Of a stretch of DNA of 12,774 bases, positions 2,662 to 2,979 are shown one piece after another (positions within the stretch are counted from its first letter, which is position 1; every line of letters starts with the position of its first letter). The stretch spans positions 1 to 12,774 of the forward strand of contig JAZNZM010000010.1 of the NCBI GenBank assembly GCA_045594965.1, read 5' to 3'. The DNA is from Oscillospiraceae bacterium (lineage in GTDB: Bacteria > Bacillota > Clostridia > Oscillospirales > Oscillospiraceae). The notes beneath the pieces are model-generated. The model did no database searches. It was given only the letters and a program-made list of their open reading frames with translations, and had not been told where the DNA came from. The position numbers and the translations under genes were made by a program.

Positions 2662-2686
2662 GTGGGTTCAAATCCCACTCCGTGTT
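2662..2686 (+). ncRNA. Orphan tRNA-like 3' fragment: T-stem/loop GTGGG-TTCAAAT-CCCAC plus a 7-nt acceptor-3'-strand-like TCCGTGT. No complementary 5' acceptor strand, D arm or anticodon arm is found upstream.
   Basis: GGTTCAAATCC is the canonical tRNA T-loop, and it is flanked by a perfect 5-bp stem. I searched about 80 nt upstream for a 5' strand able to pair with TCCGTGT, allowing G-U pairs, and found none. Immediately downstream, CCGTGTTT-TGA-AACACGG (2680-2698) forms a tight perfect hairpin that uses the acceptor-like bases. Confidence 0.4.
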
Positions 2687-2979
2687 TTGAAACACGGACC
2701 AGTGGCTTGGTATTGCCGGAAACGGCAAAGAATTGCAGGGTTTTTACCTGCCGGAAAATTCTTATTTGAAAAAGCGGCAGCCCGGCACAAGGTCTTGGGA
2801 TTTATTCCCCGGCTGAGGCGGTGGACGGGCAGCCCTGCCCGGGAGCGGATACCGCGCTTCAATGTGGGAAACCGGAGAAAAGCTCTCCCGTTCCCCACAG
2901 CGAACGCTTAAGCTTCCGGCCGCTGCCGGCCCATGGGCTGCCGCCAATCCCGAAATCACATCCAATGGAGGTTTTACAT

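What the first reader, a model, noticed from the sequence alone, without database searches (positions are those of the whole stretch)
2662..2698. Orphan tRNA T-arm/acceptor-like element with an appended hairpin, sitting in the leader region of the rtcB operon
What the sequence shows:
- GTGGG-TTCAAAT-CCCAC is a canonical tRNA T-stem-loop.
- It is followed by a 7-nt acceptor-like strand, but no 5' half of a tRNA exists upstream.
- The acceptor-like bases instead pair with downstream sequence as a tight hairpin (CCGTGTTT/AAACACGG).

Two non-exclusive interpretations:
- A duplicated tRNA 3' end left as an att-site scar by an integrative element. That would mark the WYL pair, or the SPFH-rtcB pair, as island cargo.
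- A tRNA-mimic RNA. Bacterial rtcB loci are known to carry tRNA-like Y RNAs (YrlA) next to rsr/rtcB, and RtcB's natural substrates are tRNA fragments. A T-arm mimic upstream of rtcB could be a regulatory decoy or ligand.
Basis: partly seen in the sequence, partly recalled or inferred. Interest (0 to 1): 0.6.

Follow-up and report, generated by a model that had tools for sequence, protein, structure and literature searches.

The report
Permuted tRNA-mimic RNA before SPFH–RtcB
The "orphan" tRNA T-arm is real: it is the core of a conserved, rearranged tRNA look-alike RNA transcribed just ahead of an RNA-repair operon (SPFH/slipin plus RtcB ligase), a class predicted in 2016 but never tested by experiment, and it is not an integration scar.

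Summary
The T-arm (2662-2678) and the adjoining 8-bp hairpin (2679-2698) are confirmed. The order is linker, T arm, closed acceptor stem, D arm, anticodon-position hairpin, that is, a circularly permuted tRNA mimic with the YrlA domain order.

- **Conservation:** a covariance model finds the module, same strand, upstream of the SPFH gene in more than 40 genomes. 95.9% of pair cells are paired (33-45% in slid controls) and 17 of 21 pairs show compensatory changes.
- **Reverse test:** metagenome loci found by an RNA signature alone had SPFH downstream in 17 of 18 testable cases.
- **Wider RNA:** the module lies in a roughly 450-nt leader (about 2525-2979) with a conserved promoter/operator, a 5' hairpin (RGUGC…GUAUGCY), and a 117-nt rod-like domain (2819-2936; 31 of 34 pairs compensatory) with no Rfam match.
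- **Rejected:** the att-scar reading. There is no repeat and no integrase, and position and structure are conserved.
- **Closest known:** the predicted band-7-associated tRNA (Burroughs & Aravind 2016) and YrlA. It fails the Rfam YrlA and tRNA thresholds.
- **Function (inferred):** a tRNA-mimic RNA partner of an SPFH–RtcB repair complex.

The parts
2470..2518 (+). Conserved promoter/operator: GTTTTCGCAG (3' strand of the WYL-operon terminator stem), T8 (2480-2487), CCGTGA (2488-2493), a 19-nt spacer, and the -10 box TAATAT (2513-2518). The inferred transcription start is near 2525.
   Evidence: The motif T7-CCGTGA-N19-TAnAAT keeps invariant spacing in 35 of 36 loci examined. The function as a WYL-dependent promoter is inferred, not shown.
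2565..2594 (+). 5' hairpin module GGUGC-AC-GG-GGC-CAU-GCC-GAA-GU-GUAUGCC, with an invariant 2x4 internal loop (UG / UAUG). It contains GCCGAAG at 2580-2586.
   Evidence: RNAalifold on a MAFFT alignment of 30 loci shows AU<->GC covariation at two pairs, 13 sequences each. The signature RGUGC…GUAUGCY lies within 140 nt upstream of a T arm in 54 of 84 sources on the + strand and in 0 on the - strand. The outer pair covaries G-C<->A-U.
2638..2653 (+). V hairpin GCUCCC-GGAA-GGGAGC, at the variable-arm position. It is followed by the 8-nt linker CAUUAAUC (2654-2661).
   Evidence: Seen in the sequence and in the MFE fold. A hairpin is present here in most but not all relatives, and is variable in form. 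It corresponds to the 'V' stem-loop of YrlA.
2662..2678 (+). T arm: GUGGG / UUCAAAU / CCCAC.
   Evidence: Helix 1 is 100% paired, and 3 of its 5 pairs have compensatory changes (CG<->UA, GC<->AU).
2679..2698 (+). Closed acceptor-stem mimic ('AS'): UCCGUGUU / UUGA / AACACGGA, 8 bp, stacked directly on the T arm.
   Evidence: Helix 2 has compensatory changes in all 8 of its pairs and is 95.2% paired.
2699..2710 (+). D-arm mimic CCAG / UGGC / UUGG, with the invariant GG of the D loop.
   Evidence: Helix 3 is 93.9% paired (A-U<->G-C/C-G at the third pair). The GG is invariant. A possible Levitt-type covariation links the nucleotide before the T stem with the fourth D-arm nucleotide: C/G 29, U/A 4, C/A 3, U/G 1. 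Fisher p = 0.0025, not corrected for phylogeny.
2715..2726 (+). Tetraloop hairpin GCCG-GAAA-CGGC at the anticodon-arm position.
   Evidence: Helix 4 has compensatory changes in all 4 pairs (GCCG/CGGC, GUCC/GGAC, GCCC/GGGC; GNRA or UUCG loops). In Paenibacillus and Chitinophagaceae relatives the same position holds a 5-bp stem with a 7-nt anticodon-like loop.
2728..2763 (+). Two-tier hairpin: AAGAAUU (2728-2734) pairs with AAUUCUU (2757-2763), enclosing GCAGG (2735-2739) / CCUGC (2747-2751). A weak U tract follows.
   Evidence: Some relatives have a strong U tract after the equivalent hairpin, but many do not. It is therefore not a conserved terminator.
2819..2936 (+). Second conserved structured domain: a rod-like irregular hairpin of about 117 nt. 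Its internal loops are conserved (GCCYUGCC, GGAUACCG, GCCAAAAG/CUUUCCGC, CUYAA, GCCGC). It ends about 45 nt before the start codon.
   Evidence: On the MAFFT alignment A8 with RNAalifold, 89.5% of cells are paired against 36-47% in slid controls, and 31 of 34 pairs are compensatory. Model R2 hits 66 of 81 sources, once each, on the + strand; the window scores 86.9 bits. The MFE fold of the window copy alone gives the same overall rod-like arrangement. No Rfam match was found.
2980..4080 (+). SPFH/Band-7 (slipin) gene, 366 aa. RBS GGAGG at 2967-2971.
   Evidence: Pfam Band_7, E = 3.6e-28. Homologous to stomatin in the PDB. More than 7,800 homologues were found.
4099..5307 (+). RtcB RNA ligase gene, 402 aa.
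   Evidence: Pfam RtcB, E = 1.9e-58. It is syntenic with SPFH in most loci.
131..2325 (+). Two adjacent WYL-family regulator genes: 131-1420 (WYL domain) and 1417-2325 (WCX domain).
   Evidence: Pfam. The order WYL1-WYL2-[RNA]-SPFH-RtcB is conserved in about 45 of 80 loci. In distant loci the pair is divergently oriented.

Best explanation
**Identity.** Positions 2662-2698 are the T arm and the closed acceptor-stem mimic of a circularly permuted tRNA-like domain (about 2638-2726). The order is V hairpin, linker, T arm, acceptor stem closed by a loop, D-arm mimic, tetraloop hairpin at the anticodon position.

**Setting.** This domain is the middle module of a conserved, highly structured leader RNA of about 450 nt.
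- The leader is transcribed from a conserved promoter without a -35 box, just downstream of a pair of WYL regulator genes.
- It continues into the SPFH/slipin and RtcB genes.
- It also carries a 5' hairpin (2565-2594) and a 117-nt rod-like domain (2819-2936).

**Class.** It belongs to the tRNA-like RNAs predicted next to Band-7 genes in RtcB repair operons (b7a-tRNA). It has the same domain order as the tRNA-like domain of the bacterial Y RNA YrlA.

**Most likely mechanism (inferred by analogy, not shown).**
- The RNA is made together with SPFH and RtcB when the WYL regulators switch the promoter on.
- It folds into an L-shaped tRNA 'top half' that can be neither aminoacylated nor decoded.
- It serves as the RNA subunit of an SPFH-RtcB repair particle, much as YrlA serves Rsr. 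The tRNA-like module would engage tRNA-recognising proteins (RtcB, modification enzymes). The rod-like domain and the 5' hairpin would be candidate binding sites for the oligomeric SPFH scaffold.

**Status of each step.**
- Shown: existence, structure, conservation and gene association.
- Inferred: transcription start, processing, protein partners and function.
For: **Anatomy:**

**Conservation of the tRNA-like core**
- Model R1 finds it in 37 loci at E < 1e-5, 22 of them not in the seed. All are on the + strand and lie about 250-560 nt (typically about 300) upstream of SPFH.
- 95.9% of pair cells are paired against 33-45% in slid controls. 17 of 21 pairs show two-sided changes. There are 178 compensatory cells against 47 in shuffles.

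**Topology**
- It equals the YrlA order V-T-AS-D (PMC4201824). The Rfam YrlA model aligns the window's T arm and AS hairpin to its own.
- Relatives in Paenibacillus, Chitinophagaceae and others carry canonical D arms (UAGCUCAGUGGUAGAGC) and 7-nt anticodon-like loops in the same permuted order. Three of them pass the Rfam tRNA threshold.

**Association**
- Protein to RNA.
- RNA to protein: of 80 metagenome loci retrieved only by a 16-base 5'-hairpin signature, 22 have R1 and/or R2 hits. 17 of the 18 with enough downstream sequence encode SPFH on the same strand.
- The element is also present upstream of slipin genes in cultured Subdoligranulum variabile. A more degenerate form lies upstream of slipin genes in 1,632 of 5,426 complete E. 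coli genomes.

**Literature:** a b7a-tRNA was predicted next to Band-7 and RtcB genes and had not been validated as of 2018 (bioRxiv 10.1101/312249).

**Other modules:**
Against: - There is no expression, end-mapping or binding data. Whether the tRNA-like module is released as a stable small RNA or stays part of the mRNA leader is unknown.
- The constant distance of about 45 nt between the rod domain and the first start codon holds even when another ORF is inserted before SPFH. This fits a cis-regulatory role at least as well as a trans-acting one.
- The window copy deviates from tRNA. It has no 2-nt linker between acceptor and D stems, a 3-4 bp D stem with a 4-6 nt loop, and no anticodon loop.
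- It fails the Rfam tRNA and YrlA thresholds.
- I could not read Burroughs & Aravind 2016. Equating this element with their b7a-tRNA rests on a second-hand description.
- The alignment used for the covariation count was fitted to the model. This is mitigated by the slid controls and by an independent hairpin search.
Confidence: 0.6

Rival explanations
1. **Cis-regulatory leader.** The tRNA-like module, the 5' hairpin and the rod domain together form a sensor in the 5' UTR that sets SPFH-RtcB expression. It could do so by binding SPFH or RtcB for autoregulation. It could also do so by being cut by the same tRNA-targeting nucleases and resealed by RtcB.
For: - The RNA always lies between the promoter and the first ORF, on the same strand.
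- The rod domain keeps a fixed distance of about 40-45 nt to the first start codon, even when an extra ORF precedes SPFH.
- The length of the rod domain is almost invariant at 117-118 nt.
- The hairpin after the tRNA-like module is followed by a U tract in some lineages.
Against: - The U tract is not conserved, and the window's own is weak.
- The rod domain does not overlap the Shine-Dalgarno sequence.
- Salmonella Y RNAs are also embedded in their operon (rsr-yrlBA-rtcBA) yet bind Rsr (PMC7790460; PMC4201824). Position alone therefore does not discriminate.
- This rival does not exclude the RNP model.
Confidence: 0.25
2. **Decoy.** The tRNA mimic is a competitive inhibitor or bait for tRNA-targeting toxins (anticodon nucleases, acceptor-stem nucleases). 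It would protect real tRNAs while RtcB repairs the damage.
For: - The same proposal was made for YrlA (PMC7790460).
- In about 10 relatives the hairpin before the T arm has a 7-nt loop CUGUNAA that looks like a GUN anticodon loop.
- Distant relatives carry anticodon-like arms and two or three tandem modules.
Against: - The window copy has GNRA tetraloops at both candidate anticodon positions, so it offers no anticodon loop to an anticodon nuclease.
- A single-copy leader RNA is a poor stoichiometric competitor for the cellular tRNA pool.
Confidence: 0.1
3. **att-site scar or decaying tRNA pseudogene.** The element is a leftover tRNA 3' end from an integration event and has no function of its own.
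For: The only support is the superficial look of a T arm plus an acceptor-like strand with no upstream 5' half.
Against: - There is no second copy in the window and no integrase.
- The same position and strand recur across Clostridia, Erysipelotrichaceae, Paenibacillus, Bacteroidota and soil metagenome lineages.
- Compensatory changes occur in all four helices.
- The flanks are housekeeping genes: dprA, topA, trmFO.
Confidence: 0.01
4. **Intrinsic terminator.** The GC-rich T-arm hairpin followed by UCCGUGUUUU is simply a terminator. The consensus scan flagged it as terminator-like.
For: The scan lists 2662-2678 plus TCCGTGTTTT as a terminator-like site.
Against: - The T-rich tail is the 5' strand of the next helix. 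It is not conserved: relatives have CGTGCG…, CCGGGT… and similar.
- The 7-nt loop UUCRANU is nearly invariant, which a terminator loop has no reason to be.
Confidence: 0.02

Closest known systems
Band-7-associated tRNA-like RNA (b7a-tRNA), predicted by Burroughs & Aravind, Nucleic Acids Res 2016;44:8525 (known to me through bioRxiv 10.1101/312249 and from my own recollection of the abstract)
   Same: - A predicted ncRNA that resembles tRNA and is encoded next to a Band-7/SPFH gene and RtcB.
- The window shows exactly this association.
- The association holds in both directions.
- Relatives in other phyla are tRNA-like enough to pass Rfam's tRNA threshold.
   Different: - I could not read the original description, so I cannot say whether it covers the following: the permuted order, the closed acceptor, the degenerate D arm, the tetraloop at the anticodon position, the 5' hairpin, the 117-nt rod domain, or the WYL-linked promoter.
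- The window copy does NOT 'strongly resemble an authentic tRNA'. ARAGORN finds nothing and the Rfam tRNA model gives 12-14 bits.
YrlA, the tRNA-like bacterial Y RNA (Rfam RF02553; Chen et al. 2014, PMC4201824; Wang et al. 2018, bioRxiv 10.1101/312249)
   Same: - The same module order: V stem-loop, T arm, closed acceptor-like stem-loop, D arm.
- Conserved T-loop and D-loop GG.
- A possible G15:C48 / A15:U48-type covariation.
- Encoded inside an RtcB operon.
- The Rfam YrlA model aligns its T and AS helices to 2662-2698.
   Different: - No rsr/TROVE gene is in the locus.
- The Rfam score is 13.8 bits against a gathering score of 69.
- In YrlA the 5' and 3' strands pair below the tRNA-like domain to form the Ro-binding stem. 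Here the chain enters at the variable region and leaves after a closed hairpin at the anticodon position.
- The candidate protein-binding helices are separate hairpins (2565-2594, 2819-2936).
- The Ro-binding motif GNCGAAN0-1G is matched in the window (GCCGAAG) but not across the family, where the consensus is UCCAAAG.
Canonical tRNA, and circularly permuted tRNA genes (known from the red alga Cyanidioschyzon merolae; own knowledge)
   Same: - A T arm with a canonical T loop.
- An acceptor-like helix of 7-8 bp stacked on it.
- A D arm with a GG loop.
- A permuted gene order (3' half before 5' half), as in permuted tRNA genes.
   Different: - The acceptor is closed by a loop, so there is no CCA end.
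- There is no anticodon loop in the window copy.
- There is no U8/N9 linker.
- Neither ARAGORN nor the Rfam tRNA model detects it.
- Nothing indicates maturation into a functional tRNA.
RtcR/CARF-controlled rsr-yrlBA-rtcBA operon of Salmonella (Hughes et al. 2020, PMC7790460)
   Same: An RNA-repair operon with an embedded tRNA-like ncRNA and a dedicated ligand-sensing transcription activator encoded next to it.
   Different: - The regulator here is a pair of WYL/WCX proteins, not a sigma-54 CARF activator.
- The promoter motif is T7-CCGTGA-N19-TAnAAT.
- The scaffold gene is SPFH rather than Rsr.
- The E. coli slipin locus does carry a sigma-54-like TGGCAC-N5-TCGCA upstream of its tRNA-like element.

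Membership tests
b7a-tRNA (Band-7-associated tRNA-like RNA) | Encoded adjacent to a Band-7/SPFH gene in an RtcB RNA-repair gene neighbourhood | tested here: met
   The element lies 319 nt upstream of the SPFH gene, which is followed by RtcB. The same arrangement holds in more than 40 loci. The reverse test gave SPFH downstream in 17 of 18 testable cases.
b7a-tRNA (Band-7-associated tRNA-like RNA) | tRNA-like sequence and structure (T arm, D arm, acceptor-like helix) | tested here: met
   Distant family members pass the Rfam tRNA threshold.
b7a-tRNA (Band-7-associated tRNA-like RNA) | Match to the authors' own alignment or model of b7a-tRNA | not testable with these tools
   The paper (PMC5062991) is not held. 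No Rfam family exists for it: no window hit reached any family's gathering score, and the permissive scan of 2300-3000 gave only weak sub-threshold hits to YrlA and tRNA.
YrlA (Rfam RF02553) | Score at or above Rfam's gathering threshold (69 bits) | tested here: not met
   13.8 bits, E = 2.5-9.8. None of 15 related loci passes either.
YrlA (Rfam RF02553) | Module order V, T arm, closed acceptor-like stem-loop, D arm | tested here: met
YrlA (Rfam RF02553) | Encoded within about 4 kb of, and on the same strand as, an rsr (Ro60/TROVE) gene | tested here: not met
   None of the 10 ORFs scanned in the 12.8-kb window has a TROVE domain. The rest of the genome could not be examined.
YrlA (Rfam RF02553) | 5' Ro-binding motif GNCGAAN0-1G, with 5'/3' strands forming a stem below the tRNA-like domain | tested here: inconclusive
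   The window has GCCGAAG at 2580-2586 and 2592-2598, but the family consensus at the first site is UCCAAAG. No 5'/3' closing stem was found, and the flanking helices are separate hairpins.
tRNA gene | Cloverleaf in canonical order, with an open acceptor end and an anticodon loop | tested here: not met
   ARAGORN finds 0 genes. The Rfam tRNA model gives 12.5-14.5 bits against 29. The acceptor is closed by a UUGA loop, and tetraloops occupy both candidate anticodon positions.
att site / tRNA 3'-end duplication of an integrative element | A second copy of the segment, an integrase nearby, and variable presence between related genomes | tested here: not met
   No repeat, no integrase, and conserved presence with compensatory substitutions.

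The most novel reading that the evidence does not exclude
The tRNA-like module is only one third of a previously undescribed composite RNA. The other parts are the 5' hairpin with an invariant UG/UAUG internal loop and a 117-nt rod domain with conserved internal loops. This RNA would be the dedicated RNA component or sensor of SPFH-RtcB repair systems: a bacterial 'vault/Ro-like' particle in which an SPFH cage is organised or regulated by a tRNA mimic. Under this reading the rod domain and the WYL-dependent promoter are new, and the leader couples tRNA-damage sensing to operon output in cis.
Probability: 0.25. Interest if true: 0.75.

Novelty: new member of a known kind. Interest (0 to 1): 0.55.

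Why it matters
- **An untested RNA class.** RtcB repair systems are widespread, but their bacterial substrates and cofactors are largely unknown. The tRNA-like RNAs next to Ro (YrlA) and Band-7 genes are the main clue that these systems work as RNPs centred on tRNA recognition. The Band-7 class had not been validated by experiment as of the 2018 source I could read.
- **Concrete anatomy.** This window, with its 60+ relatives, gives the class helices, invariant loops, a promoter and boundaries.
- **Association.** It shows that the RNA and the SPFH gene predict each other.
- **Tractable hosts.** It points to cultured Subdoligranulum variabile and to about 30% of complete E. coli genomes, where the region is unannotated.
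- **A second domain.** The strongly covarying 117-nt domain has no Rfam match and would be worth describing whatever the tRNA mimic turns out to do.

Tried and rejected
- **MAFFT plus RNAalifold on 38 upstream segments** recovered only the T arm, because the variable acceptor hairpin was misaligned. This was solved with a hand-specified structure on a 15-sequence seed and a covariance model.
- **Rfam scans.** The gathering-threshold scan of the whole window and the permissive scan of 2300-3000 gave nothing above threshold. Only weak YrlA, tRNA and plastid tRNA-fragment hits appeared.
- **Reading Burroughs & Aravind 2016 and the 2020 Annual Review.** Neither paper is held.
- **PDB sequence search of the two WYL proteins** gave no hit, so the comparison with PafBC remains recollection only.
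- **SPFH homologues in phage records:** none.
- **AlphaFold model of the SPFH protein.** Only the N-terminal ~175 residues (beta-rich, two repeats of the SPFH N-terminal beta motif) were confident. Mean pLDDT was 63, so no fold search was run.
- **Hairpin at 2728-2763 as a conserved terminator/attenuator.** The U tract is present in one subgroup only.
- **Long-range pairing of the conserved 5' UUGCAAGG with GCCUUGCC of the rod domain.** It is compatible in several loci but mismatched in others. It is not established (by eye).
- **The 5' hairpin as the anticodon-arm equivalent.** Rejected, because Paenibacillus-type relatives have both this hairpin and a proper anticodon-like arm after the D arm.
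- **The 16-base metagenome pattern** was too degenerate. 56 of the 80 loci returned were chance matches.
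Full report
**1. The observation**

The sequence at 2662-2678 reads GTGGG-TTCAAAT-CCCAC. This is a 5-bp stem with a 7-nt loop that fits the tRNA T-loop consensus. It runs without a gap into an 8-bp hairpin: 2679-2686 TCCGTGTT, loop TTGA, 2691-2698 AACACGGA. 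ARAGORN finds no tRNA in the 12.8-kb window. No Rfam family reaches its gathering score.

The T-loop core GGTTCRANTCC is expected 0.04 times per window by chance. That is suggestive but not decisive on its own.

- CCAG-TGGC-TTGG (2699-2710), a short D-arm-like hairpin with the GG of a D loop.
- GCCG-GAAA-CGGC (2715-2726), a tetraloop hairpin.

Upstream lie a GCTCCC-GGAA-GGGAGC hairpin (2638-2653) and an 8-nt linker. The order is therefore V hairpin, variable linker, T arm, acceptor stem closed by a loop, D arm, hairpin at the anticodon position. This is a circular permutation of a tRNA. The 5'-half equivalents lie downstream of the T arm, not upstream.

**2. Genes around it**

Pfam gives the following on the + strand:

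| Coordinates | Gene |
|---|---|
| 131-1420 | WYL-domain protein |
| 1417-2325 | WCX-domain (WYL-family) protein |
| 2326-2979 | 654-nt gap |
| 2980-4080 | SPFH/Band-7 (slipin) |
| 4099-5307 | RtcB |
| 6604-12200 | SpoU methylase, dprA, topA, trmFO |

An HAD hydrolase lies on the opposite strand at 5620-6399. This is a Clostridia-type chromosomal context. The nearest SPFH homologues (65-68% identity) come from Oscillospiraceae and other Clostridia MAGs. No integrase and no TROVE/Ro gene is present.

**3. Comparative evidence for the tRNA-like module**

- I fetched 80 genome loci through the SPFH protein. A simple T-arm search shows a T arm upstream of the SPFH start in most of them, usually about 300 nt away (range about 250-560).
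- In essentially every case the T arm is followed directly by a hairpin whose sequence differs from locus to locus. Next comes gCCAGyGGnUUGG in Clostridia, or a canonical UAGCUCAGUGGUAGAGC D arm in Paenibacillus, Chitinophagaceae and others.
- In those distant loci the hairpin after the D arm has a 5-bp stem and a 7-nt anticodon-like loop. The Rfam tRNA model passes its threshold at three of them.
- A covariance model built from 15 sequences with a hand-specified four-helix structure finds 37 loci at E < 1e-5. All are on the + strand, and 22 are outside the seed. The window copy scores 79.2 bits.
- On that alignment 95.9% of pair cells are standard pairs against 33-45% when partners are slid by 1-3 columns. 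17 of 21 pairs show changes on both sides. There are 178 compensatory cells against 47 in shuffles.
- All 8 acceptor-stem pairs and all 4 pairs of the tetraloop hairpin covary.
- The nucleotide before the T stem (C or U) tends to covary with the fourth D-arm nucleotide (G or A): 29 C/G, 4 U/A, 3 C/A, 1 U/G. Fisher p = 0.0025, not corrected for phylogeny. This recalls the G15:C48 / A15:U48 alternation reported for YrlA. I treat it as suggestive only.

**4. The module is part of a larger conserved RNA**

*(a) Promoter/operator.*
- In 35 of 36 loci examined, the motif T7-CCGTGA-N19-TAnAAT lies upstream with invariant spacing. It is preceded by the conserved GTTCGCAGC, which forms the 3' strand of the WYL-operon terminator.
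- In the window CCGTGA is at 2488-2493 and TAATAT at 2513-2518. Transcription probably starts near 2525.
- There is no -35 box. I infer that this is the target of the adjacent WYL pair; this was not tested.

*(b) 5' hairpin (window 2565-2594).*
- Its sequence is GGUGC-RY-nn-GGN-nnn-NCC-nnn-RY-GUAUGCC.
- It has covarying inner pairs (AU<->GC in 13 sequences at each of two pairs) and an invariant UG/UAUG internal loop.
- The signature RGUGC…GUAUGCY followed by a T arm is present in 54 of 84 sources on the sense strand and in none on the antisense strand. Its outer pair covaries G-C<->A-U between Clostridia and the Paenibacillus/Bacteroidota loci.

*(c) Two-tier hairpin (2728-2763).* Only some lineages have a U tract after it. 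It is not a conserved terminator.

*(d) Rod-like domain (2819-2936).*
- It is about 117 nt long, with conserved internal loops: GCCYUGCC, GGAUACCG, GCCAAAAG/CUUUCCGC, CUYAA, GCCGC.
- On a structure-agnostic MAFFT alignment the RNAalifold structure is 89.5% paired against 36-47% in slid controls. 31 of 34 pairs are compensatory.
- Its length is almost invariant.
- A second covariance model finds it once, on the sense strand, in 66 of 81 sources.
- It stays about 40-45 nt from the first start codon even where an extra ORF of about 212 aa precedes SPFH.
- It has no Rfam match.

**5. Association tested in the other direction**

I scanned metagenome contigs with a 16-base pattern taken only from the 5' hairpin.
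- Of the 80 loci returned, 56 were chance matches with no further feature.
- 22 had R1 and/or R2 hits on the same strand.
- Of the 18 with enough downstream sequence, 17 encode an SPFH protein downstream, usually followed by RtcB.
- Several are GC-rich soil lineages with only 34-42% SPFH identity.

The element is also present in cultured Subdoligranulum variabile (R1 48.6 bits, R2 79.3 bits).

A more degenerate version lies upstream of a slipin-nucleotidyltransferase pair in E. coli. It has a T arm, a closed hairpin and a sigma-54-like promoter, but no R2 hit. That 321-nt region occurs in 1,632 of 5,426 complete E. coli genomes and carries no annotation.

**6. What it is**

The att-scar reading fails:
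- There is no repeat and no integrase.
- The flanks are housekeeping genes.
- Position and strand are conserved, and all helices show compensatory evolution.

The terminator-like call on the T arm also fails. The U-rich tail is the 5' strand of the next helix and is not conserved, whereas the loop is nearly invariant.

[quoted passage not shown] The Rfam YrlA model aligns its T and acceptor-like helices to 2662-2698. But the score is 13.8 bits against a gathering score of 69, there is no rsr in the locus, and there is no closing 5'/3' stem.

The gene partner is Band-7/SPFH. According to the discussion in bioRxiv 10.1101/312249, Burroughs & Aravind (2016) predicted a 'band 7-associated tRNA' next to Band-7 and RtcB genes. 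They noted occasional swaps with YrlA/Rsr, and that discussion stated the RNA had not been validated experimentally. I could not read the original paper. I therefore file the window element as a member of that predicted class, with YrlA-type topology. I leave open how much of the anatomy above was already described.

**7. How it probably works**

*Shown:* a conserved, structured, tRNA-like RNA domain embedded in a conserved leader, tightly linked to SPFH (and usually RtcB), downstream of a conserved promoter next to WYL regulator genes.

*Inferred:*
- The WYL pair activates the promoter, by analogy with RtcR/CARF sensing damaged tRNA (PMC7790460).
- The leader RNA is made together with SPFH and RtcB.
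- The tRNA-like module folds into an L-shaped 'top half' that cannot be charged or decoded. It is recognised by tRNA-binding proteins.
- The RNA acts as the RNA subunit of an SPFH-RtcB particle, as YrlA does for Rsr.
- SPFH proteins form large homo-oligomeric cages: the stomatin entries in the PDB each hold many copies of the chain (16 in three entries). Such a cage could provide the scaffold. The rod domain and the 5' hairpin, with their invariant internal loops, are candidate binding sites.

I give about 0.95 to the identity claim and about 0.4 to the RNP mechanism.

The main rival is a cis-regulatory leader (autoregulation or a damage sensor). The fixed distance of the rod domain to the first start codon favours it. 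A decoy role is less likely for this copy, because both candidate anticodon positions carry GNRA tetraloops.

**8. Limits**

- There are no expression or binding data.
- Only a 12.8-kb window of the source genome is available.
- The covariation count for the tRNA-like core was made on a model-fitted alignment. The slid controls and an independent hairpin search mitigate this.
- Sequences are phylogenetically related, so the shuffle statistics are not probabilities.
- E-values from the short calibration are rough.
- The comparison with b7a-tRNA is second-hand.

Noticed in passing
window 2819-2936: A second, strongly covarying structured RNA domain lies between the tRNA-like module and the SPFH start. 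It is rod-like and about 117 nt long, with conserved internal loops such as GGAUACCG and GCCYUGCC. It is found in 66 of 81 sources, has no Rfam match, and stays about 45 nt from the first start codon.
   Followed up: yes
window 2470-2518: A conserved promoter/operator, GTTCGCAGC-T7-CCGTGA-N19-TAnAAT, keeps invariant spacing in 35 of 36 loci and has no -35 box. It lies directly after the WYL gene pair and is probably the WYL regulators' target.
   Followed up: partly
window 2565-2594: A conserved 5' hairpin, RGUGC-[helix]-GUAUGCY, has an invariant UG/UAUG internal loop. It is shared by Clostridia, Paenibacillus, Erysipelotrichaceae and Chitinophagaceae loci. Its role is unknown.
   Followed up: partly
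window 2580-2586 and 2592-2598: Two copies of GCCGAAG match the proposed Ro-binding motif GNCGAAN0-1G of bacterial Y RNAs. The family consensus at the first site is UCCAAAG, so the match is probably specific to the window.
   Followed up: partly
L002, L003, L005, L007, L015, L021, L027 (hairpin just upstream of the T arm): In about 10 relatives the V hairpin has a 7-nt loop CUGUNAA. This looks like an anticodon loop with a GUN anticodon (the Asp/Tyr/Asn/His family of queuosine tRNAs, which colicin E5 targets). The window has a GGAA tetraloop instead.
   Followed up: no
L081 4680-5000 (E. coli CP061233.1); L083 (NZ_CP019267.1): An unannotated 321-nt region upstream of a slipin-nucleotidyltransferase pair, between yjbD and lysC, occurs in 1,632 of 5,426 complete E. 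coli genomes. It holds a sigma-54-like promoter (TGGCACgcttcTCGCA), a T arm (TGGGTTCGATTCCCA) and a closed acceptor-like hairpin. A zeta-toxin family gene lies convergent to the pair.
   Followed up: partly
L078, L079, L080 (Chitinophagaceae), about 500-2800: Arrays of 10-12 canonical tRNA genes lie 1-3 kb upstream of the tRNA-like element and SPFH gene in the same loci.
   Followed up: no
L061 3330-3530; L069 3630-3780; L055 3650-3780: Two or three tandem T-arm / closed-acceptor / D-arm modules with near-identical acceptor strands. They could fold either as permuted units or as canonical-order tRNA-like units. The Rfam tRNA model scores about 40 bits at two of these loci (L061 and L069).
   Followed up: no
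L002 ~3345-3986; L030 3354-3992: An extra ORF (212 aa in L030, a similar size in L002) with no assigned function is inserted between the rod-like RNA domain and the SPFH gene in some loci.
   Followed up: no
window 2980-3500 (SPFH residues 1-175): The N-terminal ~175 residues of the SPFH protein are confidently predicted as beta-rich. They contain the SPFH N-terminal beta motif (…NENQRG…F.NG…L.PG.Y…) twice, and Pfam Band_7 weakly matches residues 6-48. No transmembrane segment was apparent by eye; this was not tested.
   Followed up: partly
window 2614-2630: An extra hairpin, GCCGC-AUAAGAA-GCGGU, lies between the 5' hairpin and the V hairpin. Several relatives have a second T-arm-like hairpin (GGGGUUCAAAUCCCC) at this place instead.
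   Followed up: no
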